From Acidobacteriota bacterium (lineage in GTDB: Bacteria > Acidobacteriota > Vicinamibacteria > Vicinamibacterales > Fen-181), in NCBI GenBank assembly GCA_003170135.1, contig PMZR01000140.1, positions 4,382 through 68,381 on the forward strand: 64,000 nt of DNA, written 5' to 3'. The notes beneath the pieces were generated by a model, which was not told the origin of the DNA, ran no database searches, and was given only the letters and a program-made list of their open reading frames with translations. How positions within the stretch are numbered: the first letter of the stretch is position 1; each line of letters begins with the position of its first letter. Shown in pieces: positions 1,496 through 62,129 of this stretch. The position numbers were made by a program, and so were the translations under genes.

Positions 1496-1590
1496 GTTTC
1501 GCGGGCGGGATGTTGGGGCGCAGATGCGCAACAACGGGGCGTCAGACGCGGTAGGATCGGTACCGTATTCCGGACAAGGGACGGTTGGTG

Positions 1591-3147
1591 ATGGGGCTCT
1601 ACAAGCTCTGCGAGCACAAAGGCCGTGCGAGGGATCGGTGCCCTCATCCGTGGTGGGGAGGCTACCGCGGGCATCGAGTCAGTCTGTCGCGATGGGCGAA
1701 TCGGGAGATCCTCGGCAAGGACGACGCCGCGTCGCTGCTCGAACAACTCCGAAAGGCCGTTCGTGCGGGGACCTTCGACGACCGCGGCCTCGAACCGCCC
1801 AAGGAGTCGGCGTCGCTCACGTTCGCCGAGCTGGCCGAGAAATACAAGCAACGTCACGTCATCGCCAAGGGCCTGGCCCTGGCGAAGGTGATCGACTACC
1901 GCCTGAAGCCCCTCGTCGAGCGCTTTGGCGACCAGCCGCTGGCGAGCATCCGCACGGCCGATATCGAGGACTTCATCGCGGACTTGAAGAAGCTGCCGCG
2001 CAGCGGTGGCCGAACGAGCGGACGCCCGCTGTCGCCGGCGTCCATCAACCGCAACATCGAGCTGCTGCGGCACATGATGAACTGGGCGGTGGGTCGGGAG
2101 TATCTCGATCGGACGCCGTTCCGCCGAGGAACGGAGACGCTGATTCGCAAACAGTACGAAGACAATCAGCGCCGACGACGACTGACCGAGGAGGAGGAAG
2201 GGAAGCTCCTGAGCGTCGCGGCGCCGATGCTCCGCTCGGTGATCATCGCCGCGCTCGACACCGGCATGCGGCGTGGCGAGATGCTCGCGCTGCGGTTCGC
2301 GGACATCGACTTCGGACGCCTGCTCATCACGCTTCGCGGATCCACCACCAAGAGCGGCAAGACGAGGTTCGTGCCCATTCCGACCGAGCGGCTGCGCGCG
2401 GTACTCGAGTGGCTGCGCCTCGACGCGGCGGGCCAGGAGAAGCCAGACGAGGCACGCGTGTTCAGCGATGAAGTCGGCGACCCGGTGGGATCGTTCCGCA
2501 GAGCCTGGATGACCGCGGTCCTCAAAGCGCACGACGTGGACGTCAAGTGGTGCGCCGACGGCGGCTGGCGGCATCTGTCGCCCGAGTGTGAGGAGGCGTT
2601 TCGGAAGATCGATCTGCACTGGCACGACCTGCGGCATGAGTACGCCTCGCGCCTAGTCGAACACGGCGTGCCGCTGGCACAAGTGCGCGACCTTCTCGGC
2701 CACGCGTCGATCACCACCACCGAGCGGTACGACAACCAGAAGCTCGAGAACCTGCAGGCGTCCGCGGCGAAGCTCGAGGCAGGAAAGATCTTCGCGCCGT
2801 CACCCTCGACGGCCACCAAGCCGGCGCCACCCAAGCCGCGCAAGGTCCGCACGCTGGCGAGCGCGCCCGCGCAAACGCCGAGCGATCTCACCCGCCCGTC
2901 GCGAGGCACGAACGACGCCACCCGACACGCGCCGACACCGCCACCCATGGCCCCGTCCAATCGGGATGCCGCAACTTTTTGTCAAGTTTTTGTCAAGATC
3001 GGCCCTCAGGAGGCCTGCTCAGCTAACGTAGATCGAGCCCTCGAAATGGAGCTTAAAGCTTTGAAGGAGAAGGGCTTGCAGGATTGGCTGGGAGGCAGGG
3101 ATTCGAACCCCGATAACGTGGTCCAGAGCCACGTGTCCTACCGTTGA
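1591..3147 (+). CDS. tyrosine recombinase / phage-type integrase
   Basis: Catalytic-domain motifs TGMRRGEMLAL, HWHDLRHEYASRL and LLGHASITTTERY. Adjacent to the tRNA 3' end. The ORF has no stop until 3147, so its Pro/Ala-rich tail runs antisense into the tRNA gene. The start could be TTG 1585, GTG 1588 or ATG 1591. Confidence 0.85.
   Translation: MGLYKLCEHKGRARDRCPHPWWGGYRGHRVSLSRWANREILGKDDAASLLEQLRKAVRAGTFDDRGLEPPKESASLTFAELAEKYKQRHVIAKGLALAKVIDYRLKPLVERFGDQPLASIRTADIEDFIADLKKLPRSGGRTSGRPLSPASINRNIELLRHMMNWAVGREYLDRTPFRRGTETLIRKQYEDNQRRRRLTEEEEGKLLSVAAPMLRSVIIAALDTGMRRGEMLALRFADIDFGRLLITLRGSTTKSGKTRFVPIPTERLRAVLEWLRLDAAGQEKPDEARVFSDEVGDPVGSFRRAWMTAVLKAHDVDVKWCADGGWRHLSPECEEAFRKIDLHWHDLRHEYASRLVEHGVPLAQVRDLLGHASITTTERYDNQKLENLQASAAKLEAGKIFAPSPSTATKPAPPKPRKVRTLASAPAQTPSDLTRPSRGTNDATRHAPTPPPMAPSNRDAATFCQVFVKIGPQEACSANVDRALEMELKALKEKGLQDWLGGRDSNPDNVVQSHVSYR
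2976..2997. repeat. perfect tandem direct repeat TTTTTGTCAAG x2 (AT-rich)
   Basis: Read directly. The two 11-mers are head to tail, about 90 nt from the tRNA-Gln 3' end and inside the integrase ORF tail. Confidence 0.9.
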
Positions 3148-3158
3148 ACGACCTCCCA
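3085..3158 (-). tRNA. tRNA-Gln (anticodon CUG), CCA encoded
   Basis: Hand-folded cloverleaf. Acceptor stem TGGGAGG/CCTCCCA, D stem GTTC/GGAC, anticodon stem CGTGG/CCACG with loop CTCTGGA, T arm CGGGG-TTCGAAT-CCCTG, discriminator G, then CCA. 74 nt. Confidence 0.93.
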
Positions 3159-11711: not shown

Positions 11712-12719
11712 ATGGAAACCCCGACCATCAATGCCGAAAGCGGTGTCTTCGCGTCCGAGCTTCTCCTGCGCCGCGACCGGCTCGAACGCGCGGTGGCGCG
11801 AAATCTCGGAGACCGCCACCTGGAGCACCTCCTGTCCGAAGTCGATGCGGCGTTGCAGCGCATCGAGAAGGGGACCTTCGGGTTGTGCGAGACGTGCGGC
11901 GGCGAAATCGAGCACGATCGCCTGCTGGCCGATCCCCTGGTGCGGTACTGCCTCGAGGATCTCACGCCGGGTGAGCAGCGCGCGCTCGAACAGGACCTGC
12001 AGCTCGCGGCAGAGATCCAGCGCGGCCTGCTGCCGCAGCCCTCGGTCCGGACCCACGGCTGGGAAGTGTCGCATCACTTCGCGCCGCTCGGCGTCGTCAG
12101 CGGCGACTATTGCGACGTGGTGGTGCCTGACGGCAGCGACGGGCACGGCTTCTTCCTGCTTGGCGACGTCTCCGGCAAGGGTGTGGCCGCCTCGATCCTG
12201 ATGGCCAACCTGCACGCCACGTTCCGCACGCTGCTGGCGAGCCGCCTGCCGATCGACGCGCTGCTGGAGCGCGCGAACCGCCTGTTCTGCGAGAGCACGA
12301 TCGCGAGCCAGTACGCCACGCTCGTGTGCGTGAAGGCCTCGCCGGACGGCGAGGTGGAGGTTGCCAACGCCGGGCACTGCCCGGTGCTGGTCCGTTCGGA
12401 GGCGGGCACCCGCGTGATGCAGTCTGGCGGCCTGCCGCTCGGCATGTTCTGCAGCTCGCAGTACCCGATCGAGCGCACGCGCCTCGACCGCGGCGATCTC
12501 ATGCTGCTGTACACGGACGGCGTGATCGAAGCGCGCAACGCGGCTGACGCCGAGTACGGCCACGACCGGCTGCTGGCCATGTTCGAAGGCCTGGCCCCCG
12601 AGACCCGGAGGGACCCGGCGCGCGTCACGCAGGCCTGCCTCGATCACCTGGCGGCATTTCGGGACGGCGCCCCGCGACGCGACGACGTGACCATCATGGC
12701 CGTGCGGCGGATGGAGTGA
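11712..12719 (+). CDS. DksA/TraR-type zinc-finger domain fused to a PP2C (SpoIIE-family) phosphatase
   Basis: N-terminal coiled region plus CETCGGEIEHDRLLADPLVRYC. C-terminal SGDYCDV...LGDVSGKGVAASILMA...LLYTDGVIEA PP2C/SpoIIE motifs. In-frame ATG 11712. Confidence 0.8.
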   Translation: METPTINAESGVFASELLLRRDRLERAVARNLGDRHLEHLLSEVDAALQRIEKGTFGLCETCGGEIEHDRLLADPLVRYCLEDLTPGEQRALEQDLQLAAEIQRGLLPQPSVRTHGWEVSHHFAPLGVVSGDYCDVVVPDGSDGHGFFLLGDVSGKGVAASILMANLHATFRTLLASRLPIDALLERANRLFCESTIASQYATLVCVKASPDGEVEVANAGHCPVLVRSEAGTRVMQSGGLPLGMFCSSQYPIERTRLDRGDLMLLYTDGVIEARNAADAEYGHDRLLAMFEGLAPETRRDPARVTQACLDHLAAFRDGAPRRDDVTIMAVRRME

Positions 12720-12732
12720 GGCGCGACGCAGA

Positions 12733-12781
12733 GGGGTCAGGTCGTGAAAAAACTGGCCAATCAAGACCTGACCCCACTTGG
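12733..12781. repeat. REP-like palindromic element, type 1 (GGGGTCAGGTC...GACCTGACCCC)
   Basis: ggggtcaggtcgtgaaaaaactggccaatcaagacctgaccccacttgg. A near-identical copy lies at 24963-25011. Located between convergent genes. Confidence 0.85.
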
Positions 12782-12812: not shown

Positions 12813-13343
12813 CTACTGCAGCAGGCTCTCCACCAGTTTCTCGAACTGGCGCTCGCGGTCGTCGCTGTTCAATCGCACCTTCGCCACGACGCGACCCTGC
12901 CGGTCGATGACGTACTCGGTCGGCGCGCCGCCGACGCCGTAGGCTTTCTTGATGTCCGGACTGCCCTTGAACGCCGCGAACGTGTAGTGCTTCTCGTCCA
13001 GGAACGGCTGCACCAGGTCATCCTGCTTCTCGACGATGTTGACGGCCAGCACCGTGAGGCCCTTGCCACGGTACTTCTCGGTCACGCGCTGCAGGCGAGG
13101 GAACTCCTCGCGGCAGTACGGTCACGTGGGGAAGAAGAAGTAGAGCAGCACGACGTTGCCGCGCACGTCCGACAGCGACACGTCGCGATCGTGTGTGTAC
13201 GGCGTCAGCGAGAAATCCGGCGCCGCCTGCGGCTCCGCAGCCTGTGGGTCGCCGTCCATGCCCGCCGCGGCGATCGCCCGTGGCGGCGAGGTCAGCGGCA
13301 GTGTCACGACCAACAGTGCAAGGAGCAGCGGAGTGCGGCGCAT
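12813..13343 (-). CDS. TlpA/redoxin-family thiol-disulfide oxidoreductase, candidate selenoprotein (UxxC; TGA at 13122-13124 read as Sec)
   Basis: Two ORFs (13343-13122 and 13085-12813) share one frame and are separated only by a single TGA. The joined product reads ...VVLLYFFFPT-U-PYCREEFPRLQRVTEKYRGKGLTVLAVN..., which parallels the WCxxC...KGL.V..V core of TlpA/ResA. N-terminal signal peptide present. Confidence 0.6.
13089..13116 (-). promoter_or_regulatory. SECIS-like stem-loop immediately downstream of the in-frame UGA
   Basis: The mRNA CUGC-C-GCGAGG-AGUUC-CCUCGC-CU-GCAG folds as 4 bp, a small internal loop, 6 bp and a 5-nt apical loop containing GU. By hand fold the apical loop begins 16 nt after the UGA. 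Confidence 0.45.
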
Positions 13344-13409
13344 GATGTCTCCCGGCGGTCCTGGGTTCCGACCGCCCGGCGTTCAGGAGCCCGGTCGGCC
13401 ACGGCAAGT

Positions 13410-13521: not shown

Positions 13522-14004
13522 ATGCTGATCAGCAAGGAACTGAACGCGGCGGTCAACGAGGAGATCGGTCTCGAGCTGTTCGCCTCGCACCAGTACATGG
13601 CGATGGCGGCCTATTTCGATGAAATTGCGCTGAAGAAGCTGTCGCAGCTGTTCTTCAAACAGGGCGAGGAAGAGCGGTCGCACGCGATGAAGTTCATCAA
13701 GTACCTGATGGACGCCGGCGGCAAAGTGGAGATTCCGGCCATCAAGGCGCCGCAGGCCGCCTTCGCGACCGTCGAAGAAGCCATCCGCGTCTCGCTGGAC
13801 TGGGAGCTGGAAGTGACCCGCCGCATCAACGCGCTGATGGCGCTCGCGATCGACCAGAAGGATTACATCGCCCAGGACTTCCTGCGGTGGTTCGAGACCG
13901 AGCAGCTCGAGGAAGTGTCCACGATGGACCGGTTGCTGAAGGTCGTCAAGCTGACGGGCGAGCGGAACCTGATTATGATCGAGGGTTATCTGTCGCACGA
14001 ATAG
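13522..14004 (+). CDS. ftn: ferritin (non-haem, Ftn-type)
   Basis: Ferroxidase-centre pattern LN..VNEE...S..Y..MA.Y, EERSHA and QLEEV. 160 aa. Confidence 0.9.
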   Translation: MLISKELNAAVNEEIGLELFASHQYMAMAAYFDEIALKKLSQLFFKQGEEERSHAMKFIKYLMDAGGKVEIPAIKAPQAAFATVEEAIRVSLDWELEVTRRINALMALAIDQKDYIAQDFLRWFETEQLEEVSTMDRLLKVVKLTGERNLIMIEGYLSHE

Positions 14005-14062: not shown

Positions 14063-14287
14063 ACACCGTTCGCGACGTGGGGGCCGAGCTTGCTCGGCCC
14101 CTCGCGCCTGCGGGGTGGAGCACGCTCCGCCCGTTCTGCCTTCCGCCCTCCCTCGTGAAGACGCCCTCCGCGCTCAATGTCGTTGACAGCAGACAGCTCA
14201 GCCGATAGGATGCGCGGCAACGGCCGGCGTTTGTTCCATTCGCCAACACGATCGCCAACTTATCACCACGCAGAATGGAGGCGGCAC

Positions 14288-14587
14288 ATGCTCCGCATCC
14301 TGCGAGCCAGCTTGGTCGTCATCGTGGGCGCGTTGTTCGTCAGTTGCCTCAATCCCCTGGCGCCTGTGCCACAGGATCCGTGCCCCGGCTCGCTCACGTG
14401 CAGATCCCCCTCGGTCCCGAACGGAGTCACCTGCTGCGTGAACCCGTACAACTCGTCGGTCGGGTACTTGTGCGCCTATGGCGCGAACTACCAGCCGGCA
14501 GGTTGCATGAACCAGGACCAGGCGAGCCAGACCTGCGGAGTGTACAACATGCCGTACACCGTCGTGCGGTGCGTGGCTGGCGGCTAG
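14288..14587 (+). CDS. small Cys-rich lipoprotein (hypothetical)
   Basis: Signal peptide with lipobox LFVSC. 8 further Cys residues in 79 mature residues. Immediately upstream of the DsbA-like gene. Confidence 0.6.
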   Translation: MLRILRASLVVIVGALFVSCLNPLAPVPQDPCPGSLTCRSPSVPNGVTCCVNPYNSSVGYLCAYGANYQPAGCMNQDQASQTCGVYNMPYTVVRCVAGG

Positions 14588-14608: not shown

Positions 14609-15232
14609 ATGGGTTCCAGCCGGTTGCGCGACGCGTTCCCTACCACCTTTCTGCTGGTCCTGCTCGCGTTGAGCGTCGCGACGAACCTGGTCTTTGTCGC
14701 CAGGCAGATGGGATGGCACCTGCCGTCGAGGAGCGTGCAGATTCCAGCGGTGACGCCGTCGGACCACATCCGCGGCGACGCGCACGCGGCCGTCACGATC
14801 GTCGAGTACGGCGACTTCCAGTGTCCGTTCTGCGCGACGTTTCACGCGTCGATGGTGCAGCTGTCGCGCGAACGCAGATTCCGCTGGGTCTACCGGCACT
14901 TTCCGCTCACGACCATCCACGCATCGGCGCTGCAGGCCGCCGAGGCCGCCGAGTGCGCCGGCGACCAGGGGCGCTTCTGGCAGTACGCCGACGCGCTCTT
15001 CCAACGCCAGCAGAAGCTGTCGCCCGCCGAATTATCGAGCATCGCCGCCGATGTCGGCATCGACGCGGCCAAGTTCGGCCCGTGCCTCGCCTCGGAGCAG
15101 CACCGCCAGCGGGTGTTGGACGATGCGCAGGCCGGCGGGGCCCGCATCTCGGGAACGCCGACCTTCTACATCAACGGCAAGCGATTCGAGGGAGTTCTGC
15201 CGCTGCAGACCCTTGAACAGCTCGTTCGCTGA
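14609..15232 (+). CDS. DsbA-family thioredoxin-fold oxidoreductase, membrane-anchored
   Basis: N-terminal TM segment. YGDFQCPFCATF active site and the GTPTFYING cis-Pro loop motif. Confidence 0.85.
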   Translation: MGSSRLRDAFPTTFLLVLLALSVATNLVFVARQMGWHLPSRSVQIPAVTPSDHIRGDAHAAVTIVEYGDFQCPFCATFHASMVQLSRERRFRWVYRHFPLTTIHASALQAAEAAECAGDQGRFWQYADALFQRQQKLSPAELSSIAADVGIDAAKFGPCLASEQHRQRVLDDAQAGGARISGTPTFYINGKRFEGVLPLQTLEQLVR

Positions 15233-23560: not shown

Positions 23561-24145
23561 CTACTTGGCGAAGATGCCCTTGAGCACGCCGACCAGGTCG
23601 AGGTTCTTCTCGAAGAGGACGAGCGGAATCTTCTTCGCCTTCGAAATCGCCGTGAAGCGGCCGTCCTCGTTGCCGTCCTTGCGCACGATCATGAAATTCG
23701 CCATCGGGCAGACGGCGTCGATCGACATCTCGTCGGAGTTGTCGCCGGGCGCCGCACCCGCCGACCGCCGGCTCATGCCCTCGATGTGCGCGCCTATGAC
23801 GGTCATGCCCTGCTTGCGCGCTTCGGCGATGAGCGCCTCGACCCGCTTCAACTCATCCTCGATCGACACGCCGGCGGCGCCCATGCCCTTGAGGCTCGCC
23901 CCGGTGACGACGATGAGCGACTTGAACTGCTTCGTCGCCAGGTCCTTCGCGACGGCGTCCTCCTTGAGCGTGTATTCCACGCCGGCGCGGCGCGCCAGCA
24001 CGTTCATGGCGTTGGCGCCAGGGCTCTGGCCGCACGAGGTGATGAGCACCGGCGCCGGCGCTTTCGGCGTGGTCTGGGCGGATGCGACGGCCATCAGGCA
24101 AATGAGAGCAAGGCCGAGCGTGAAGATGCGGCTGCGGACTGTCAT
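23561..24145 (-). CDS. secreted hypothetical protein (first gene of the permease operon)
   Basis: Signal peptide MTVRSRIFTLGLALICLMAVASA. 194 aa. GGAG RBS. No motif I can name with confidence. Confidence 0.6.
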   Translation of the reverse strand: MTVRSRIFTLGLALICLMAVASAQTTPKAPAPVLITSCGQSPGANAMNVLARRAGVEYTLKEDAVAKDLATKQFKSLIVVTGASLKGMGAAGVSIEDELKRVEALIAEARKQGMTVIGAHIEGMSRRSAGAAPGDNSDEMSIDAVCPMANFMIVRKDGNEDGRFTAISKAKKIPLVLFEKNLDLVGVLKGIFAK

Positions 24146-24196
24146 GGCGTTCTCCGGGATCGGGGGCAGGGGCGTGCGGGGGCGAGAATACCATAG

Positions 24197-24267
24197 TCGT
24201 TGGTCGTTAGTTGTTGGTTGTTGGTTGTTGGTCGGGGTCGTTGGTCGTTAGTCGGGGTCGTTGGTCG
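24197..24267 (+). repeat. heptamer tandem array TCGTTGG/TTGTTGG (about 10 units, single arm)
   Basis: tcgttgg tcgttag ttgttgg ttgttgg ttgttgg tcgggg tcgttgg tcgttag tcgggg tcgttgg. Lies in the divergent region upstream of pgsB. Confidence 0.9.
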
Positions 24268-24375
24268 CCTGCCCTGAGCGAGCGCAGCGAGTCGAAGGGT
24301 TGGCCGGAGCCGCCCCCGGGCCGTCTGACGTCGGCCGGCCGCCTTCGGTGTAAGCTGCTGCAGAATCAGGGGCTC

Positions 24376-25698
24376 ATGATTCTCTTCGCCTGCCTCGTCC
24401 TGCTCGTGACGCTCGGACTTTTCGAGCGGGTGGCCGTCCGCCGGGCGCGCGGCGCGATGCCCATTCGCATCCACGTGAACGGGACCCGCGGCAAGTCCAC
24501 GGTTACGCGGTTGATTGCCGCGGCGCTGCGGGAGGCGGGCATCCCCACGGTCGCGAAGACCACGGGCACCGCCCCGCGGCTCATCCTGCCGGACGGCTCC
24601 GAGCGGCCCGTCATCCGCCGGGCACCGGCCAGCATTCGCGAGCAGGCGTGGCTCGTCGGTCGCGCCGCTCGCGCGGGCGCCCGGGCGCTGGTGGCCGAGT
24701 GCATGGCCGTCCAGCCGGACCTGCAATGGGTGAGCGAGCGCGAGATGCTGCGGGCGACGATCGGCGTCATCACCAACGTGCGCCTCGATCACACCGAGGC
24801 GATGGGCCGGACGCTCGACCAGATTGCGCAGTCGCTGGCCAATAGCGTCCCGCGCGGCGGCGTGCTGGTGACAGGCGATCGGCGCGTCGCGACGGCAGCG
24901 GCCTCGCGGTGCGCCGCGCTCGGCACGCGGCTCGTCGTCGTGGCCGCGTCGGGCGACTTCACGGGGCCAGGTCGTGAAGAAAGTGGCAAATCAAGACCTG
25001 ACCCCATCTGGGTGGAGGATGCGCGCATCGCGCTCGCGGTCACGCGCGAGCTGGGCATCGCCGATGCGATTGCCGTGCGAGGGATGCAGAAGGCCGCCGC
25101 CGACCCCGGTGCGGTGACCCGCGGGGTCGCGACAATTGGCGAGCGCCAGGTCGCGTGGATCGACGCGACGGCCGCCAATGACCCGGAGTCGCTGGACCTG
25201 CTGATAACAGGGCTGAAGCCCTGTTCCACGTCAGGGCATGTCGAACCGGACTCGAGGGATGGCCCGGCAGCCGACCATGCGGCACCAGCGGCGACGGATG
25301 TGGCACAGGACTTCAGTCCTGTGCTCACGATCTACAACCACCGGGCCGATCGATCGGATCGCCTCCGCATCTTCGCCCAGTGCAGCACGGTGTTCCGACA
25401 CTCCGGGCAGGTCGTCGTGACCGGGGATCGGCCGAGCCTGTCACTGATGACGCGCGCGAGGCAACTGTGCCCGGGCATCGACATCCGGTTCGTGCCGCGC
25501 CGCCGCCTCGCCGCGGCGACCGGCGCAATCTTGTCCGCATTCCACGTTCCACCCTCGGCGTCGGACATTCCAGATGCCGGGCCCGGCGGCGACGATCCGA
25601 TGGTCATCTTCTGCGGCAACACGCGTGGCTTCGTTCGCCCCTTTTCCGCGAACGTGGACACCGGACACCGGACTCCGGACTCCGGACAGATTCCTTGA
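24376..25698 (+). CDS. pgsB: poly-gamma-glutamate synthase PgsB/CapB
   Basis: VNGTRGKSTVTRLIAAALREAG (Mur-ligase P-loop), ECMAVQPD, TNVRLDH and NHRADRSDR match my memory of Bacillus PgsB. It contains three palindromic elements and a 3'-terminal heptamer array in frame. Confidence 0.88.
   Translation: MILFACLVLLVTLGLFERVAVRRARGAMPIRIHVNGTRGKSTVTRLIAAALREAGIPTVAKTTGTAPRLILPDGSERPVIRRAPASIREQAWLVGRAARAGARALVAECMAVQPDLQWVSEREMLRATIGVITNVRLDHTEAMGRTLDQIAQSLANSVPRGGVLVTGDRRVATAAASRCAALGTRLVVVAASGDFTGPGREESGKSRPDPIWVEDARIALAVTRELGIADAIAVRGMQKAAADPGAVTRGVATIGERQVAWIDATAANDPESLDLLITGLKPCSTSGHVEPDSRDGPAADHAAPAATDVAQDFSPVLTIYNHRADRSDRLRIFAQCSTVFRHSGQVVVTGDRPSLSLMTRARQLCPGIDIRFVPRRRLAAATGAILSAFHVPPSASDIPDAGPGGDDPMVIFCGNTRGFVRPFSANVDTGHRTPDSGQIP
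24963..25011. repeat. REP-like palindromic element, type 1, embedded in frame in pgsB
   Basis: ggggccaggtcgtgaagaaagtggcaaatcaagacctgaccccatctgg, about 5 mismatches from the intergenic copy at 12733-12781. Encodes GPGREESGKSRPDPIW. Confidence 0.85.
25207..25224. repeat. short palindrome ACAGGGC-TGAA-GCCCTGT inside pgsB
   Basis: Perfect 7-bp stem with a 4-nt loop, read directly. A variant of the type 2 element. Confidence 0.8.
25303..25324. repeat. REP-like palindrome, type 2 (GCACAGGAC-TTCA-GTCCTGTGC) inside pgsB
   Basis: Identical over 25 nt (gtggcacaggacttcagtcctgtgc) to the copy at 63569-63593. Encodes AQDFSPV. Confidence 0.9.
25656..25690 (+). repeat. heptamer tandem array GGACACC/GGACTCC (5 units) forming the last codons of pgsB
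   Basis: ggacacc ggacacc ggactcc ggactcc ggacaga. Translated as DTGHRTPDSGQ. Confidence 0.9.
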
Positions 25699-25705
25699 GG
25701 CTCCA

Positions 25706-26146
25706 ATGCTCGAAACCGCCATCGGCGTCGGCATCACCGTGAACCTGCTGCTGACCGAGGTCTTCGGCCTCGCCTCGGCGGGCCTGGTGGTTCCCGGGTA
25801 TCTCGCGCTGTATCTCTCGCACCCGTGGCGACTGGTGGCGACCACCGTCGTCGCGCTCCTGACGTGGGCGGTGGTGCGATTCGGCCTCGCTCGCCTCATC
25901 GTCCTCTACGGCCGCCGGAGGTTTGGCATCACGGTGCTCGTCGGGTTCCTGCTGAACCTGCTCGCGCTGCGCGTCCTGCGCGCGATGCCCGCCGAGCCGG
26001 TTGACCTGCGCGCCATCGGCTTCATCATTCCGGGCCTGATCGCCAACCAGGCGCTCGTCCAGGGCGTGTGGCCGACGCTCGTCCTCACCGCGCTTGCCGC
26101 CGCGATCGTACGGCTCGTGTTGTTCGCCGCGGGCGGATGGGTGTGA
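25706..26146 (+). CDS. pgsC: poly-gamma-glutamate biosynthesis protein PgsC/CapC
   Basis: 146-aa polytopic membrane protein. GLVVPGYLALY and IIPGLIAN motifs match PgsC. GAGG RBS. Confidence 0.85.
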   Translation: MLETAIGVGITVNLLLTEVFGLASAGLVVPGYLALYLSHPWRLVATTVVALLTWAVVRFGLARLIVLYGRRRFGITVLVGFLLNLLALRVLRAMPAEPVDLRAIGFIIPGLIANQALVQGVWPTLVLTALAAAIVRLVLFAAGGWV

Positions 26147-54388: not shown

Positions 54389-54679
54389 CTAGAGTTTTCC
54401 CCAGCCTCGCGTCAGGTAGTCGCTCAGCGACAACGCGAACAGGATGCCGACCCAGAACAGGCTCGCGCCGGCGACGACCCACGTGAGGCGCGTGCTGTAG
54501 CGCAGGTGCATGAAGAAGAGGACCACCAGCGACGCCTTCAGGACCGCGATGGTCAGCGCGACCACGGGGCTGAAGAACCCGAGGTCGAAGAACGCGACCC
54601 AGCTCGTCAGGCCGGTGAGGATGAGCAGCGCCCCGAAGACGGTGTAGTAGACGCGCAGCGGAACGATGTGTTCAGACAT
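54389..54679 (-). CDS. ctaF: cytochrome c oxidase subunit IV (caa3-type small subunit)
   Basis: 96 aa, 3 TM. HIVPLRVYYTVFGALLILT...VVLFFMHL is typical of the bacterial CoxIV/CtaF family. Last gene of the oxidase operon. Confidence 0.8.
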   Translation of the reverse strand: MSEHIVPLRVYYTVFGALLILTGLTSWVAFFDLGFFSPVVALTIAVLKASLVVLFFMHLRYSTRLTWVVAGASLFWVGILFALSLSDYLTRGWGKL

Positions 54680-54691
54680 GGATTATTCCAC

Positions 54692-54832
54692 GTGCGAAGT
54701 GCGATGTGCGACGTGCGACGTGCGACGTGCGGTGCGACGTGCGAGGTGCGGTGCGACGTGCGAGCATCCCGCACGCAGTCTGCACTCGGCACCCAGCACC
54801 GCACTTTGCACCTCGCACTCCGCACTCCGCAC
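54692..54832. repeat. inverted pair of heptamer arrays (GTGCGAN x11 / NNCGCAC-type arm) between ctaE and ctaF
   Basis: Left arm 54692-54764: gtgcgaa gtgcgat gtgcgac x3 gtgcg gtgcgac gtgcgag gtgcg gtgcgac gtgcgag. Right arm 54765-54832: ...gcactttgcacctcgcactccgcactccgcac. Confidence 0.95.
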
Positions 54833-54837
54833 AATCG

Positions 54838-55536
54838 TCACCTGTGTCGATCCACCAGGTACAACAGCGGGAACAGGAAAATCCAGATGATGTCCACGAA
54901 GTGCCAGTACAGGCCCGCCACCTCGATCGGCGTGTGCCACTTCTCGTTGAACACGTTGCGCCACGCCATGTACATCATCGTCAGGATGATGCCGAAGCCG
55001 ATGAATATGTGCAGCGCGTGCAGTCCCGTCATCGTGAAGTAGAGCGAGAAGAAGATCTGCGCGTGGTTCGGATCCGTCCCCTCGATCTGGAAGCCGTGCC
55101 CGGGAATGTGGTGGTCCAGGTACTCGTGGTAGTACTCGAGGAACTTCAGCCCGACGAAGATCACGCCGAGCAGCAGCGTCAGCCCCAGGAACCCCACAAT
55201 CCGTCCACGCCGCCCGTTGGCCGCCGCGTGCACCGCCATCGCCATCGTCAGGCTGCTCGTGATGAGGACGACCGTCATCCCCGCGCCCGAGTAGATGTTG
55301 AGCTGGCGGCTCGCGACGCCGAACGTGGACGGGTACCAGACGCGATAGAGCATGTAGGCGGCGAACAGGCCGCCGAAGAACAGCACTTCGGTCACCAGGA
55401 AGACCCACATGCCGAGCGTGGCCGCTTCGCGCTGCTGCTCCATGTCGTCGAAGTGGTGCGCAAGACGCGGATCGTGCGGGGGATGTGGCTGCCCCGCATG
55501 CGAGGGCGGCGACTGAGGGCTCGCCACTTCAGCCAA
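54838..55536 (-). CDS. ctaE: cytochrome c oxidase subunit III
   Basis: [32 protein letters not shown]...[20 protein letters not shown] start overlaps the ctaD stop. Confidence 0.9.
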
Positions 55537-57151
55537 GTTGGGCCTCCTGCTTCTCGTAGTCGTAGGCCGGGCCGGTCACAATCGGCGTCTCGTCGAAGTT
55601 GAAGGTCGGCGGCGGCGACGTCGTCTGCCACTCGAGGCCGGTGGCGCCCCAGGGGTTCGGCCCCGCGACTCTTCCGTACTTCAATGACAGCAGCAGGTAG
55701 ACGAGCGGCATCAGGTAGCCGATGCCGAGCACCGAGGCCCCTGCGGTGGACAGCACGTTGAGCGCCTGGAACTCGGGCGGATACGCGTGGTAGCGGCGCG
55801 GCATGCCCAGGTAGCCGAGGATGAACTGCGGGAAGAACGTCAGGTTGAAGCCGAGGAACACCGTGAGCGCCGCCAGCTTCGCCCAGATCTCCGGGTACAG
55901 GCGTCCCGTGATCTTCGGCCACCAGTAATGGATCGCCCCCAGGTACCCCATCAGCGCGCCGCCGACCATGATGTAGTGGAAGTGCGCGACGACGAAGTAG
56001 GTGTCGTGCACGTGCACGTCGATACCCAGCGTGGCGAGGAACAGCCCCGTGAGGCCGCCGATGGTGAAGAGGCCGATGAACCCGAACGCGTACAGCATCG
56101 GCGCGGTGAGCGAAATCGAGCCCTTGTAGAGCGTCGCCGTCCAGTTGAACACCTTGATCGCCGACGGGATGGCCACCAGGAAGCTGAGCACCGAGAAAAT
56201 CATCGCCGAGTACATCGAAATGCCGGCGACGAACATGTGGTGGCCCCAGACGAAGAAGCCGAGGACGGCGATCGCCAGGCTCGAGAAGGCCACCATCTTG
56301 TAGCCGAAGACGCTGTGGCGCGTGAAGGCCGCGACCAGTTCGCTGACCACGCCCATCGACGGCAGGATCATGATGTAGACGGCCGGGTGCGAGTAGAACC
56401 AGAACAGGTGCTGGAAGAGGAGCGGGTCGCCGCCATAGGCCGGGTTGAAAATCCCGAGGTGGAACGCGCGCTCAACCGCCACGAGCACCAGCGTGATCGC
56501 GAGCACGGGCGTGCCCAGCACGTTGATGAGGGCCGTCGCGTAGATCGACCAGAGGAACAGCGGCATCCGCATCCACGTCATGCCCGGCGCGCGCATGCGG
56601 TGGATCGTGACGATGAAATTGAGGCCCGTGAGGATCGACGAGAAGCCCGCGATGAAGACCCCGATCGCCGCGGTCAGCACGTTCGTGTTCGACGCCACCG
56701 TGCTGAACGGCGTGTAGAACGTCCAGCCGGTGTCCACGCCGCCGGTGGCGATGGCCCACAGCGTGAACGCCCCGCCCAGCACGTAGACGTACCAGCTGAG
56801 CAGGTTGATCTTCGGAAACGCCAGGTCGCGCGCGCCGATCATCATCGGCACCAGGAAATTGCCGAAGACAGCCGGAATCGACGGAATCAGGAAGAGGAAG
56901 ATCATCACGATGCCGTGCATCGTGAACAGCTTGTTGTAGGTGTCGTCCGACACGAGATCGCCCGGCGGCGTCAGCAACTCGAGGCGGATCACGCCGGCGA
57001 ACAGCGCGCCGATGCCGAAGAACACCGTGATGCTGATGAGGTACAGGATCGCAATCCGCTTGTGATCGGTCGTCAGCAGCCACGACTTGATGCCGTAGTC
57101 GGCGTTGAGGTAGTGCGTCTTCGGGAGCGCGAGCGCTTCGGGTGATTCCAT
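55529..57151 (-). CDS. ctaD: cytochrome c oxidase subunit I
   Basis: [29 protein letters not shown] and VVAHFHY haem-copper oxidase signatures. Confidence 0.95.
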
Positions 57152-57157
57152 AAGGAC

Positions 57158-58189
57158 CTACCGCTTCGGCATCGGACCCTGGGGCGGACGCGCCGGGGTC
57201 GTTTCACCCGGTCGCGGCCCCGTCGGTGCCTCGCCTTGCGGCTGGGGCGGGAGCGCCGTGGTGGCGATCGACTTGATGTACTCGATGAGCTGCAGCAACT
57301 GCTCTTCGCTGACGACGCCCTGGAACGACGGCATGATCGGCTGGAATCCCGCCACGTTCGTCCCTCCCGGCGTCAGGATGCACGTGCGCAGATAGGCTTC
57401 GTCGACCGTGGCGGCCTGGCCGTTCGCCAGCTGGACCTGGTGGCCGAACAGCCCCTGCAGCACCGGCCCGCGCCCCTGGCCATCGGATTTGTGGCAGGTC
57501 ACGCATCCGAGGTCCTGGAACAGCTTCTCGCCCGCCGACGCCATCGAGCCTTCGCCTGTCCCGCCCGCGAGCCACGTCTCATAGTCGGCCGGCGCCATGA
57601 CCACCACCTGGCCGATCATGCCGGAGTGTTTCGTGCCGCAGTATTGTGTGCAGAAGAAACGATAGGTGCCGGGCTGGGTCGGCCTGAACCAGATGGTCGT
57701 GTACCGCCCGGGCACGATGTCCGCCTTCATGCGAAACGCCGGCACGAACAGGTCGTGAATGACGTCCTCGGACGCCAGGGTCAGCTTGACGGCGCGGCCC
57801 GTGGGCACGTGCAGCTCGTCGATCTCGCGCTGGCCGCCCAGGTGCTGGAACTTGAACATCCACTGCTTGGCGACGACGTAGATGTCGAGCGTGTCGGAGG
57901 GCGGCGACCCCATCGAGAAGTACACGCCGGCGCCCCAGAAGAACATCACCATCGTCAGCAGCACGGGGATTGCCGTCCACAACACTTCGACGGCGTACCC
58001 GGCGTGGACAGGCTGGCCGATGTCGCCGCGTGCACGCTGGCGGTAGCGATAGGCGAAATACACGACCAGCGCGGCGATGAGGATGCTGAAGAAGGCGCTG
58101 ACGCCGACGAGGAAGAAGTACAACGCGTCGACGCGCCCGGCCATCGTCGAGGCGCGCTCGGGGAACACGGGGAAGAAACGCGGCCACAT
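57158..58189 (-). CDS. coxB: cytochrome c oxidase subunit II with fused C-terminal cytochrome c domain (caa3-type)
   Basis: CuA site FFCTQYCGTKHSGM and C-terminal CVTCH haem c motif. Two N-terminal TM segments. Confidence 0.92.
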   Translation of the reverse strand: MWPRFFPVFPERASTMAGRVDALYFFLVGVSAFFSILIAALVVYFAYRYRQRARGDIGQPVHAGYAVEVLWTAIPVLLTMVMFFWGAGVYFSMGSPPSDTLDIYVVAKQWMFKFQHLGGQREIDELHVPTGRAVKLTLASEDVIHDLFVPAFRMKADIVPGRYTTIWFRPTQPGTYRFFCTQYCGTKHSGMIGQVVVMAPADYETWLAGGTGEGSMASAGEKLFQDLGCVTCHKSDGQGRGPVLQGLFGHQVQLANGQAATVDEAYLRTCILTPGGTNVAGFQPIMPSFQGVVSEEQLLQLIEYIKSIATTALPPQPQGEAPTGPRPGETTPARPPQGPMPKR

Positions 58190-60882: not shown

Positions 60883-60955
60883 GTGCGAGGTGCGAGGTGC
60901 CAGCACCCGGCACACCAGCACTTCGCACGAGCACTCAGCACCCAGCACCTGGCAC
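60883..60955. repeat. inverted pair of heptamer arrays (GTGCGAG x2-3 / NNNGCAC x7) between actE and actF
   Basis: gtgcgag gtgcgag gtgccag | cacccggcacaccagcacttcgcacgagcactcagcacccagcacctggcac. Confidence 0.9.
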
Positions 60956-61542
60956 TACTTCGGCGCATCGTGGACCTCGTTGCGCTTCCCGGGCGGCACG
61001 TCGGCGATTGACGCCGCGGTGGTGGCCTGAAGCGCCCGGATGTAGGCGACGATCGCCCACCTGTCGCGGACCGGCACCTGCTGCTTGTAGTCCGGCATCG
61101 CGCCGAAGCCGTTCGTGATCACGTCGAAGAAGTGGCCCGCCGGCGCCTGCCGCAACCGGTCGACGTGCAGCGAGGGCGGCGCGCGGAACCCGCGGCGCAC
61201 GATCATCCCGTCGCCGTTGCCCGTCCGCGAATGGCACGGCGCGCAGAAGATGTCGTAGCGCTCGTGCCCGCGCGTCATGACGTCCCAGGTGACCGGGAAC
61301 GGGAACACCGTGGCAAGCTCACCGTTCACCTTGCCGGTGTACAGCACGTCGTCGCCTTCCACGTCGCCTCGCGCGACCGTCCCTTCGACGAGCGGCCGCT
61401 CCGAGCGGTGATCAGCGAAGAACTCGCTCTCCCGCAGCGGGATGTATTTCGGCTGGTCGTGCATGTCCTGCCGGCAGCCGCCAAGCGCCAGCAGTCCAAT
61501 CAGCCCGAGGCCTGCGCAGAGTCGTTCGCGGTTACGCCACAA
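60955..61542 (-). CDS. actE: Alternative Complex III subunit ActE (monohaem cytochrome c lipoprotein)
   Basis: Lipobox LALGGC and CAPCH haem-binding motif. TTG start overlaps the actD stop. Confidence 0.8.
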   Translation of the reverse strand: MWRNRERLCAGLGLIGLLALGGCRQDMHDQPKYIPLRESEFFADHRSERPLVEGTVARGDVEGDDVLYTGKVNGELATVFPFPVTWDVMTRGHERYDIFCAPCHSRTGNGDGMIVRRGFRAPPSLHVDRLRQAPAGHFFDVITNGFGAMPDYKQQVPVRDRWAIVAYIRALQATTAASIADVPPGKRNEVHDAPK

Positions 61543-62065
61543 CGTCCGACACCTCTCGCGGCGCCAGGCTCAGCAGGAACTGGCGCGTGGCGTGCGCATC
61601 GAACTTCGGATCCGCGGCTTCGATGCACAGGAAGAACCGATCGCGCGTTGCGAGCGCGAACCGCGGAACGTTGAACACCGGGTGGTAGAGCATCGGCAGC
61701 CGATTCAGCGCGAGCATGCCGAAGACCGCTGTCGCCGCGGCCAGCAGCACCGTCATCTCGAAGGTGACCGGCACGAACGCGGGCCAGCTGTTGTACGGGC
61801 GGCCGCCGACATTGAGCGGATAAGCGATGACCGCCACCCAGTACTGCAGCGCGAAGCCGGACAGGGCGCCGATGGCGCCGCCACACAGGACGAGCAGCGG
61901 CACCGCCGTGCCGTGGATGCCCAGCGCCTCGGTCAGTTCCTCGATCGGGAACGGCGCATACGCGTCCATCTGGCGGTAGCCCTCGTCGTACGCGCGGCGG
62001 GTGACGTCCACCAGCGTCTTCGGATCGTCGAATTCGGCCATCAGGCCGTATAACGGCTCGGCCAT
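61532..62065 (-). CDS. actD: Alternative Complex III subunit ActD (DUF3341-type)
   Basis: LYGLMAEFDDP..L......Y..GY...DAY.PFP N-terminal pattern plus two TM segments. ATG 62065. Confidence 0.8.
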   Translation of the reverse strand: MAEPLYGLMAEFDDPKTLVDVTRRAYDEGYRQMDAYAPFPIEELTEALGIHGTAVPLLVLCGGAIGALSGFALQYWVAVIAYPLNVGGRPYNSWPAFVPVTFEMTVLLAAATAVFGMLALNRLPMLYHPVFNVPRFALATRDRFFLCIEAADPKFDAHATRQFLLSLAPREVSDVVA

Positions 62066-62085
62066 GCTCAAACGCCTCGCGCGTC

Positions 62086-62127
62086 GTCCGGAGTCCGAGG
62101 TCCGAACTCGACACCGGACTCCGGACT
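62086..62127. repeat. inverted pair of heptamer arrays (GTCCGGA/GTCCGAG/GTCCGAA vs CCGGACT x2) between actC and actD
   Basis: gtccgga gtccgag gtccgaa ctcgaca ccggact ccggact. Confidence 0.9.
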
Positions 62128-62129
62128 CG

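What the first reader, a model, noticed from the sequence alone, without database searches (positions are those of the whole stretch)
12813..13343. Candidate selenoprotein: exported TlpA/redoxin-family protein with UGA replacing the first Cys of CxxC, plus a SECIS-like hairpin
The ORFs 13343-13122 and 13085-12813 are in the same frame. They are separated only by one TGA (13122-13124) and 12 further sense codons. The joined sequence reads FFFPT-[TGA]-PYCREEFPRLQRVTEKYRGKGLTVLAVN. In TlpA/ResA/redoxin proteins the equivalent stretch is W-C-x-x-C followed by ...L...Y...G..V..V, so the TGA falls exactly on the redox-active N-terminal Cys.

Sec/Cys interchange at this position is an established feature of thioredoxin-fold selenoproteins.

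Downstream, the mRNA can form CUGC-C-GCGAGG-[AGUUC]-CCUCGC-CU-GCAG. Its apical loop contains GU and begins 16 nt after the UGA, which fits within the spacing described for bacterial SECIS elements.

A standard gene caller would split or discard this gene.
Basis: partly seen in the sequence, partly recalled or inferred. Interest (0 to 1): 0.75.

Follow-up and report, generated by a model that had tools for sequence, protein, structure and literature searches.

The report
Unannotated exported TlpA-like selenoprotein gene
This is very probably a real gene for a secreted thiol-disulfide enzyme whose active-site cysteine is replaced by selenocysteine, encoded by a "stop" codon; public annotations cut the gene in two, but it belongs to an already recognised kind of bacterial selenoprotein.

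Summary
Window 13343..12813 (-) is one 176-codon frame interrupted only by TGA at 13122-13124, and that TGA aligns with the first Cys of the CxxC motif of TlpA/ResA/DsbE-type redoxins.

- At least 14 distinct relatives from independent metagenomes (46-96% amino-acid identity), plus TPR-fused paralogues, all keep TGA at this codon. Their frames are intact on both sides, with dN/dS below 1.
- The closest full-length Cys forms found are only about 38-48% identical and carry Cys at that position.
- The hairpin after the TGA meets the published bacterial SECIS model: 6-bp stem, loop AGUUY, 16 nt after UGA.
- The stem is kept by four compensatory double changes and one G-U wobble.
- Synonymous variation is suppressed across it, and a rare CCT codon is retained there.
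- TGA is an ordinary stop for 11 of 28 well-supported genes in the window, so the code is not reassigned.

Not shown: selA, selB, selC and selD are absent from the 64 kb, and the rest of the genome could not be reached.

The organism is related to Vicinamibacterales (Acidobacteriota). UxxC redoxin/TlpA-like selenoproteins are already catalogued, so this is a mis-annotated new member of a known kind. No curated NCBIfam model reaches its cut-off.

The parts
12813..13343 (-). Complete selenoprotein coding sequence: 176 codons, ATG at 13343-13341, Sec-TGA at 13122-13124, TAG stop at 12813-12815. Public annotations call it as two genes of 73 aa and 90 aa.
   Evidence: Single frame with one TGA. Pfam AhpC-TSA and Redoxin above threshold. 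GC3 is 0.83 upstream and 0.92 downstream of the TGA. dN/dS is 0.15-0.67 on both sides. The split annotation appears in all public copies.
13269..13343 (-). Probable Sec-type signal peptide, MRRTPLLLALLVVTLPLTSPPRAIA|AAG (inferred).
   Evidence: Read directly from the translation: a basic N-terminus, a hydrophobic core and an AxA site. Orthologues have equivalent N-termini. No signal-peptide predictor was available, so the cleavage site is inferred.
13113..13124 (-). Active-site motif U-P-Y-C, with TGA at 13122-13124 as codon 74 and Cys77 at 13113-13115.
   Evidence: The TGA aligns with the first Cys of CxxC in 16 homologues. The motif FPT-U-PYCR is invariant in orthologues.
13089..13116 (-). 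bSECIS-like hairpin inside the coding sequence. Lower stem: 13116-13113 pairs with 13092-13089. Upper 6-bp stem: 13111-13106 pairs with 13100-13095. Apical loop AGUUC: 13105-13101.
   Evidence: RNAfold gives -14.7 kcal/mol for the 28-nt hairpin. The RNAalifold consensus shows the same structure. In the upper stem, 95 of 96 cells pair across 16 sequences, with 4 compensatory cells and covariation of 0.104 against 0.052 in shuffles (0 of 500 reach the observed value). Synonymous diversity is 0.111 here against 0.297 elsewhere (p about 0.01).
13348..13353 (-). Shine-Dalgarno-like GGGAGA, ending 4 nt upstream of the ATG.
   Evidence: Read from the sequence. Not tested further.
12733..12775 (-). 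Terminator-like inverted repeat, GGGGTCAGGTC ... GACCTGACCCC, with a T-run. It lies between this gene and the convergent SpoIIE-type phosphatase gene.
   Evidence: Sequence. The consensus scan reports a terminator-like site at 12773-12755 on the - strand. This is a consensus match only.

Best explanation
The locus is one functional gene for an exported TlpA/ResA/DsbE-like thioredoxin-fold oxidoreductase. The attacking residue of its redox motif is selenocysteine (U-P-Y-C).

Proposed mechanism:
1. During translation, the UGA at 13122-13124 is read as Sec.
2. This happens because the mRNA immediately downstream folds into a bacterial SECIS hairpin: a 6-bp G+C-rich upper stem and an AGUUY loop starting 16 nt after the UGA.
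3. The hairpin would recruit SelB carrying Sec-tRNA(Sec) to the ribosome.
4. The hairpin is built from the codons of the conserved CREEFPR segment.
5. The finished protein is exported through its N-terminal signal peptide. In the cell envelope it acts as a selenol/thiol-disulfide reductase, presumably re-reduced by a CcdA/DsbD-type membrane electron carrier, as other TlpA-family proteins are.

Shown here: the single frame, the position of the TGA in the fold, conservation of the TGA and of both halves, the Sec/Cys pair, and the conserved, covarying hairpin.

Inferred: SelB-dependent Sec insertion, export, direction of electron flow, and substrate.
For: 1. The TGA lies on the first Cys of CxxC, and the joined protein passes the Pfam Redoxin and AhpC-TSA thresholds. 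The closest solved structures are DsbE, ResA and TlpA.

2. TGA is kept at the same codon in every close relative found:
- L019-L022
- L023-L030
- the syntenic relatives L038 and L039
- L040 and L041
- the paralogous TPR-fused forms in L042-L044 and L025
Pairwise identity falls as low as 46%, and none has an extra stop or frameshift.

3. Both halves are under purifying selection, with dN/dS of 0.15-0.67, and both have coding-type GC3.

4. Cys forms exist only at greater distance. The exported type is at most about 38% identical. TPR-fused proteins with FWFP[GAT]-C-xPCR reach 42-48%.

5. The hairpin meets all four bSECIS model criteria quoted in PMC13188914: a 5-nt loop with G at position 2 followed by U, a 6-bp upper stem, 16-nt spacing, and an MFE of -10 to -17 kcal/mol.

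6. Base pairing is maintained through substitutions:
- The A-U pair becomes C-G in L021, and G-C in L038 and L042.
- The C-G pair becomes U-A in L042.
- The G-C pair becomes G-U in L026.
- In each case at the A-U pair, the third base of the Pro codon tracks the middle base of the Glu/Ala/Gly codon opposite.

7. The Pro codon is the rare CCT, only 4.6% of Pro codons in this window, in every sequence where its partner is A.

8. Synonymous diversity in codons +1 to +11 is 0.111, against 0.297 elsewhere. The one freely varying synonymous site, TTC/TTT, lies in the loop.

9. TGA terminates 11 of 28 Pfam-supported genes in the window, so this is site-specific recoding.

10. One relative, L025, carries two such TGA genes side by side, as expected of a Sec-decoding organism.

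11. Acidobacteria are reported to include selenoprotein-containing species (PMC1794560; PMC12013277).
Against: - No selA, selB, selD or tRNA-Sec lies in the 64-kb window or in any fetched flank. The Sec-decoding trait of this organism is therefore unproven.
- The hairpin of the window sequence alone is not significantly more stable than shuffled sequence (z = -0.91).
- The hairpin region also encodes a protein motif, CRxE.P, that is conserved in Cys homologues. Part of its nucleotide conservation is therefore protein-level.
- Covariation rests on only a few events: two pairs, four cells.
- One paralogue, L025b, has a C.A mismatch in the stem.
- There are no expression or selenium-incorporation data.
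Confidence: 0.88

Rival explanations
1. Recent pseudogene: a nonsense mutation (TGC to TGA) inactivated a TlpA-like gene, and the two halves are decaying remnants.
For: Public gene callers split it into 73-aa and 90-aa fragments. No Sec machinery was seen in the window.
Against: - The same TGA is present in relatives down to 46% identity and in paralogues, with no frameshift or second stop anywhere.
- dN/dS is below 1 on both sides.
- No close Cys-containing orthologue exists from which a recent mutation could derive.
- There is synonymous constraint and compensatory pairing in the hairpin.
Confidence: 0.02
2. The UGA is recoded, but not as Sec. The downstream hairpin and the weak UGA-C context promote read-through by a near-cognate tRNA (Trp, Cys or Arg), or the UGA is decoded as Cys through a Sec-like pathway.
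For: - The UGA is followed by C in all FPT-U-PYCR orthologues. From general knowledge, UGA-C is a leaky termination context.
- Sec machinery is not demonstrated for this genome.
Against: - The UGA occupies the catalytic Cys position of a redox motif, where only Sec or Cys preserves function. A Trp or Arg there would give a dead enzyme, yet the gene is under purifying selection.
- The hairpin has the specific bSECIS features of loop G-U and 16-nt spacing, not a generic read-through stimulator (for the criteria).
- Paralogues with UGA-G keep the same hairpin.
Confidence: 0.06
3. The TGA is a true stop. The locus makes a 73-aa exported peptide and, separately, a 90-aa protein from the GTG at 13085. 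This is a split gene, possibly with the two parts reassembling.
For: A GTG start lies 12 codons after the TGA, and gene callers accept it.
Against: - The 12 codons between the TGA and the GTG are the most conserved of the whole gene at both amino-acid and nucleotide level, and they contain the resolving Cys.
- The GTG is not conserved as a start. L022, L027 and L038 have CTC at that codon, L025 has ATC, and L026, L028 and L029 have GTC. The callers also chose different starts in relatives.
- The 90-aa fragment has neither a signal peptide nor the redox motif.
- No ribosome-binding site precedes the GTG (sequence).
Confidence: 0.03
4. Genome-wide reassignment of TGA to a sense codon.
For: None beyond the in-frame TGA itself.
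Against: - TGA ends 11 of 28 Pfam-supported genes in the window.
- It is the only pair of long (80 codons or more), high-GC3 stop-to-stop segments in the window that a TGA joins in frame; the three other such junctions inspected use TAG.
Confidence: 0.01

Closest known systems
[quoted passage not shown]
   Same: - A thioredoxin-fold thiol-disulfide oxidoreductase with Sec at the first position of UxxC.
- Cys homologues exist.
- The SECIS lies within the coding sequence just after the UGA.
- The Pfam Redoxin and AhpC-TSA domains are matched.
   Different: I could not check whether the example accessions of those families are orthologues of this protein. The motif here is FPT-U-PYCREEFPRLQ. The host lineage is Vicinamibacterales-like Acidobacteriota rather than the Deltaproteobacteria and Clostridia in which the first such families were described.
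NCBIfam NF053656, 'TUGYCR motif thioredoxin fold (seleno)protein', and NF041054, 'ResA-like WAxxUGC motif-containing protein'
   Same: Both are curated redoxin/ResA-like selenoprotein families. The TUGYCR motif resembles T-U-P-Y-C-R here.
   Different: - Scores are far below the curated cut-offs: 32.7 against 100 bits, and 36.3 against 300 bits.
- The WAxxUGC family has U-G-C (UxC spacing), not UxxC.
Characterised Cys-type periplasmic reductases: Bradyrhizobium TlpA (PDB 1jfu, 4txo), Bacillus ResA (1st9 and others) and DsbE/CcmG (3gl3, 3kh7)
   Same: - Fold and domain length.
- Export signal or membrane anchor.
- An active-site (C/U)xxC followed by R.E.P.
- The conserved cis-Pro region G.P.
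   Different: - Sec replaces the nucleophilic Cys.
- Identity is only about 30-40%.
- The protein is below every NCBIfam equivalog or subfamily cut-off: ResA 70.8 against 170, TlpA 47.2 against 230, DsbE 37.2 against 123.
- It does not sit in a cytochrome c maturation or cytochrome oxidase assembly operon. Its neighbours are a ferritin gene, a DsbA-like gene and a SpoIIE-type phosphatase gene.
E. coli fdhF/fdnG SECIS and the bSECISearch consensus model
   Same: A stem-loop immediately 3' of the UGA inside the ORF, a small apical loop with G-U at its start, and spacing within 16-37 nt (for the criteria).
   Different: There is no sequence similarity, and the spacing is at the minimum of the allowed range. 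Whether a bulged U equivalent to that of fdhF is needed is unknown, and SelB binding is untested.

Membership tests
Bacterial selenoprotein gene (Sec-UGA plus bSECIS) | In-frame UGA conserved at the same codon in orthologues, with coding conservation on both sides | tested here: met
   At least 14 distinct relatives and 4 paralogue sequences keep the TGA, with no other stop or frameshift. dN/dS is 0.15-0.67 on both sides.
Bacterial selenoprotein gene (Sec-UGA plus bSECIS) | Homologues with Cys aligned to the UGA (Sec/Cys pair) | tested here: met
   The column is Cys in 16 TlpA-like homologues and in the Cys forms P0082, P0076, P0081, P0085 and P0092.
Bacterial selenoprotein gene (Sec-UGA plus bSECIS) | bSECIS model: 3-9 nt apical loop, 4-16 bp upper stem, G in the first two loop positions, 16-37 nt from UGA to loop, MFE of -7.5 kcal/mol or lower (PMC13188914, Fig. 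2 legend) | tested here: met
   - Loop AGUUC: 5 nt, with G at position 2 followed by U.
- 6-bp upper stem.
- 16-nt spacing.
- MFE of -14.7 kcal/mol.
- The same holds in all relatives.
- Compensatory changes are present.
Bacterial selenoprotein gene (Sec-UGA plus bSECIS) | Genome encodes SelA, SelB, SelD and tRNA-Sec | not testable with these tools
   None lies in the 64-kb window or in the fetched flanks. The single genome-collection scan found no close relative. A look-up meant to extend the window failed.
Bacterial selenoprotein gene (Sec-UGA plus bSECIS) | Selenium actually incorporated at the UGA | not testable with these tools
   This needs 75Se labelling, mass spectrometry or a reporter assay.
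TlpA/ResA/DsbE-like redoxin (thioredoxin fold; Pfam PF08534 / PF00578) | Domain match above the curated Pfam threshold | tested here: met
   AhpC-TSA scores 71.6 bits (cut-off 26) and Redoxin 70 bits (cut-off 26.6). PDB DsbE, ResA and TlpA match at E = 1e-17 to 1e-7.
TlpA/ResA/DsbE-like redoxin (thioredoxin fold; Pfam PF08534 / PF00578) | (C/U)xxC active site and the conserved cis-Pro loop | tested here: met
   U74-P-Y-C77. C77 is invariant and P141 nearly invariant in the alignment.
TlpA/ResA/DsbE-like redoxin (thioredoxin fold; Pfam PF08534 / PF00578) | Extracytoplasmic location (signal peptide or membrane anchor) | tested here: inconclusive
   The N-terminus looks like a Sec signal peptide, and orthologues share this. 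No predictor was available and there is no experiment.
NCBIfam NF053656 redoxin_TUGYCR (seleno)protein | Score at or above the curated cut-off (100 bits) | tested here: not met
   32.7 bits. It is absent from the hit lists of four relatives and paralogues.
NCBIfam NF041054 ResA-like WAxxUGC selenoprotein | Score at or above 300 bits, and a WAxxUGC motif | tested here: not met
   36.3 bits here; at most 57.9 bits in the relatives and paralogues tested. The motif here is FFPTUPYC.
Named equivalogs TlpA (NF047696), ResA (NF002854) and DsbE/CcmG (TIGR00385) | Score at or above the curated cut-off | tested here: not met
   47.2 against 230, 70.8 against 170, and 37.2 against 123.15. The protein is a family-level relative, not an orthologue of any of these.

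The most novel reading that the evidence does not exclude
The FPT-U-PYCREEFPRLQ proteins and their TPR-fused paralogues form a distinct selenoprotein subfamily that no curated model yet captures.

- Among the close relatives recovered, the subfamily appears to be Sec-only: no Cys form above about 48% identity was found.
- It is exported to the envelope of aerobic, soil- or sediment-dwelling Vicinamibacteria-like Acidobacteriota.
- Its SECIS has become fused to the conserved CREEFPR active-site helix, so RNA and protein constraints co-evolve: the middle base of the Glu/Ala/Gly codon pairs with the third base of the Pro codon.

If so, it would be a convenient natural system for studying how a SECIS is accommodated inside a constrained coding segment, and why an envelope reductase needs selenium in an aerobe.
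Probability: 0.45. Interest if true: 0.45.

Novelty: new member of a known kind. Interest (0 to 1): 0.35.

Why it matters
**Annotation.** Every public copy of this gene, in NCBI, JGI, ENA and Logan, is split into a 73-aa "SCO1/SenC-like" stub and a 90-aa "thioredoxin" stub. The same applies to its relatives. The gene and its whole clade are therefore invisible to function and pangenome analyses.

**Biology.** It implies that this Vicinamibacterales-like acidobacterium uses selenium and places a selenoenzyme in its cell envelope. The same organism carries caa3 oxidase and alternative complex III genes and so appears to respire oxygen. This adds to the picture of selenium use outside the classical anaerobic selenoprotein-rich groups.

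**Method.** The locus is a clean example of a SECIS whose stem is maintained through coupled non-synonymous and synonymous changes.

It does not change current understanding of Sec decoding.

Tried and rejected
- **Genome-collection scan.** A scan of GTDB species genomes with the joined protein found only distant Cys-type TlpA proteins (25-50% identity over the matched segment) and not the source genome. 
- The 102 residues after the TGA were used instead. That search is what revealed the truncated orthologue fragments.
- **Single-sequence folding.** The z-score of -0.91 gives no support on its own. I rejected it as evidence and replaced it with comparative tests.
- **Identical copies.** The first set of contigs carrying the gene was 100% identical. 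It is uninformative for evolution and useful only to exclude sequencing error.
- **Rfam.** No family matches the locus even at E = 1, and the only window-wide hit is tRNA-Gln. I know of no bacterial SECIS model in Rfam, so the absence of a hit says little about the hairpin.
- **Other recoded genes in the window.** Three more same-frame adjacent ORF pairs are separated by TAG and are ordinary neighbouring genes.
- **Extending the window.** A look-up of the ActC-like protein was not on record. The chance of hitting sel genes was low anyway.
- **Not attempted.** Structure prediction was skipped because the full-length Sec-to-Cys sequence cannot be submitted and the fold assignment is already secure. 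A covariance-model search for further SECIS copies was skipped because such a model would mainly find homologous coding sequence.
- **Operon context.** There is no link to cytochrome c maturation or to Sco/CoxB. The oxidase genes lie 41 kb away. A specific TlpA-like role in CuA assembly is therefore not supported.

Full report
**1. The observation**

On the minus strand, window 13343..12813 translates as a single 176-codon frame with one internal stop, TGA at 13122-13124. The sequence around it reads ...NVVLLYFFFPT-*-PYCREEFPRLQRVTEKYRGKGLTVLAVN....

The TGA and 12 sense codons lie between them. Both pieces have the high third-position G+C of real genes in this 67% G+C window, 0.83 and 0.92.

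With Cys in place of the stop, the protein passes the Pfam thresholds for AhpC-TSA (71.6 bits) and Redoxin (70 bits). Its closest solved relatives are DsbE, ResA and TlpA. In an alignment with 16 full-length homologues, the TGA column is the first Cys of CxxC.

For this single sequence the fold is no better than shuffled controls (z = -0.91).

The 931-bp region is identical, or differs at one base, in 11 contigs taken from at least 8 different ENA, JGI and Logan samples. The TGA is therefore not a sequencing or assembly error.

**2. Comparative evidence**

A full HMMER scan with the 102 residues after the TGA returned several short proteins of 70-113 aa. These begin just after the redox motif and are 39-84% identical to the query. 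Fetching their contigs showed in every case an upstream ORF in the same frame, ending in TGA at the homologous codon:
- L019 (96% nucleotide identity)
- L020, L021 and L022
- L040 and L041

A metagenome scan added eight more, L023-L030. A syntenic relative, L038/L039, has the arrangement ferritin, split gene, TPR protein, SpoIIE phosphatase, and it too has the TGA.

Pairwise amino-acid identity among the nearly full-length sequences goes down to 46%. None has a frameshift or a second stop. dN/dS against the window sequence is 0.15-0.59 upstream of the TGA and 0.24-0.67 downstream.

A second architecture is a TPR domain of about 450 aa fused to the same redoxin domain. It also carries TGA at this codon (L042, L043, L044, and a second gene in L025). 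In L025 the two Sec genes are adjacent.

Cys forms occur only at greater distance:
- at most about 38% identity for exported single-domain proteins
- 42-48% for TPR-fused proteins with FWFP[GAT]-C-xPCR.EFP

This is the classical Sec/Cys pair signature.

**3. The hairpin**

Across 16 distinct sequences, 95 of 96 cells of the 6-bp upper stem are paired. Several substitutions preserve the pairing:
- The A-U pair is replaced by C-G in L021 (Glu GAG to Ala GCG, with Pro CCT to CCG).
- The same pair is replaced by G-C in L038 and in L042 (GAG to GGG, with CCT to CCC).
- A C-G pair becomes U-A in L042.
- A G-C pair becomes G-U in L026.

The covariation score is 0.104, against 0.052 ± 0.011 in column shuffles. 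None of 500 shuffles reaches it, and it exceeds all slid controls.

Wherever the pairing partner is A, the Pro codon is CCT. That codon accounts for only 4.6% of Pro codons in the window's genes.

At amino-acid-invariant codons, synonymous diversity is 0.111 in codons +1 to +11 and 0.297 elsewhere (permutation p about 0.01). That stretch is the lowest-diversity run in the gene. The only freely varying synonymous site in it, TTC/TTT, lies in the loop.

The structure satisfies the published bSECIS model (PMC13188914, Fig. 2 legend), which requires:
- an apical loop of 3-9 nt
- an upper stem of 4-16 bp
- G in the first two loop positions, usually followed by G or U
- 16-37 nt between the UGA and the loop
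- an MFE of -7.5 kcal/mol or lower

Here the values are 5 nt (AGUUY), 6 bp, G-U at loop positions 2-3, 16 nt, and -10 to -17 kcal/mol.

**4. Alternatives**

- *Genome-wide TGA reassignment* is excluded. TGA ends 11 of 28 Pfam-supported genes in the window. Among adjacent long, high-GC3 segments in the same frame, this is the only junction formed by a TGA.
- *A pseudogene* cannot explain conservation of the stop and of both halves across this much divergence.
- *Independent translation of the 90-aa piece* is unlikely. The 12 codons before its GTG are the most conserved in the gene and contain the resolving Cys. The GTG is not conserved as a start. The fragment would lack both a signal peptide and an active site.
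- *Non-Sec read-through* remains formally possible, because the Sec machinery was not seen.

**5. What is not shown**

The window has only tRNA-Gln. Four Pfam scans covering 40 of its long ORFs found no SelA, SelB or SelD. The flanks of related loci have no tRNA-Sec.

GlnRS from the window is about 75-81% identical to the proteins that NCBI labels Vicinamibacterales or Acidobacteria. Acidobacteria are reported to include Sec users (PMC1794560; Occallatibacter riparius in PMC12013277). This is lineage-level plausibility only.

**6. Function (inferred)**

The N-terminus, MRRTPLLLALLVVTLPLTSPPRAIA|AAG, looks like a Sec-type signal peptide, and orthologues share this.

The protein is therefore most likely a periplasmic or envelope selenol-thiol reductase of the TlpA/ResA/CcmG type. 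The Sec would be the attacking nucleophile and Cys77 the resolving residue. From general knowledge of the family, it would be recycled by a CcdA/DsbD-type carrier.

Gene context:
- The gene is monocistronic.
- It is divergent from a ferritin gene (13522-14004).
- It is convergent with a DksA-zinc-finger/SpoIIE phosphatase gene (11712-12719).
- A DsbA-like gene and a Cys-rich secreted ORF lie further upstream, but both are missing from the syntenic relative.

No cytochrome c maturation or Sco/CoxB assembly context is present. The caa3 oxidase and alternative complex III genes lie 41 kb or more away. The substrate is unknown. The conserved ferritin neighbour hints at envelope redox or oxidative stress, but only weakly.

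**7. Comparison with what is known, and novelty**

A 2026 review lists several predicted prokaryotic selenoprotein families of this type (PMC13188914 Table 1):
- "Redoxin family protein (PF08534, UxxC)"
- "Thiol:disulfide interchange protein (UxxC)"

The kind is therefore known.

Against NCBIfam release 20, this protein and four relatives reach no curated cut-off. The nearest selenoprotein models are redoxin_TUGYCR (32.7 against 100 bits) and WAxxUGC_long (at most 57.9 against 300 bits). All public annotations split the gene.

I therefore file it as a new, currently mis-annotated member of a known kind. It works like a UxxC thioredoxin-fold selenoprotein. It is a member of the Pfam Redoxin/AhpC-TSA superfamily, but not of the named TlpA, ResA, DsbE, TUGYCR or WAxxUGC families.

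**8. Verdict**

Interest is modest at 0.35. It is a good catch and a clean SECIS covariation example, but it would not surprise specialists.

Noticed in passing
L025:3001-3522 and L025:3606-5285: One related contig (Ga0153916_10005042) carries two TGA-containing redoxin genes side by side. One is the short exported form. The other is a TPR-redoxin fusion of about 555 aa with FPT-U-GGCREEFPH and the same hairpin, which has one C.A mismatch. TPR-fused Sec forms also occur in L042-L044, and Cys forms exist (P0082, P0076, P0092).
   Followed up: partly
window 14609-15232 (+): A DsbA-like protein (CPFC motif) matches NCBIfam NF041057, 'Rcas_1661 family thioredoxin-like (seleno)lipoprotein', at 96.9 bits, below the cut-off of 190. 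It is the Cys version of a family that has Sec members, and it lies about 1.3 kb from the Sec gene. It is absent from the syntenic relative L038/L039.
   Followed up: partly
window 14177-14587 (+): A small Cys-rich, apparently secreted ORF (called as 99 aa in public records) with no NCBIfam match. It sits between the ferritin gene and the DsbA-like gene, and is also absent from L038/L039.
   Followed up: no
window 1585-3158: A phage-type integrase gene (1585-3147, +) abuts tRNA-Gln(CTG) (3085-3158, -). This suggests an integrated mobile element at the left end of the window.
   Followed up: no
window 11712-12719 (+): A SpoIIE/PP2C-type phosphatase with an N-terminal DksA/TraR zinc finger, convergent with the Sec gene. 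The pairing of the ferritin gene, the Sec gene and this phosphatase gene is conserved in the relative L038/L039.
   Followed up: partly
window 54389-58189 and 60955-63530 (-): A caa3-type cytochrome c oxidase cluster (COX4_pro, COX3, COX1, and COX2 fused to cytochrome c), followed by alternative complex III genes (cytochrome c, ActD, NrfD-like ActC). These indicate aerobic respiration in the host of this selenoprotein.
   Followed up: no
window 23561-26146: A DUF6305 gene lies next to a CapB-like Mur-ligase gene and a CapC gene, a poly-gamma-glutamate-type capsule synthesis pair. The arrangement is conserved in L038/L039.
   Followed up: no
window 12733-12775: An 11-bp perfect inverted repeat, GGGGTCAGGTC / GACCTGACCCC, with a T-run in its 21-nt loop. 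It lies between the two convergent genes and may be a bidirectional terminator.
   Followed up: partly
window 13122-13343 and 12813-13085 (public records): JGI names the 73-aa N-terminal stub 'cytochrome oxidase Cu insertion factor (SCO1/SenC/PrrC family)' and the 90-aa stub 'thiol-disulfide isomerase/thioredoxin'. These are two different functional labels for halves of one gene.
   Followed up: yes
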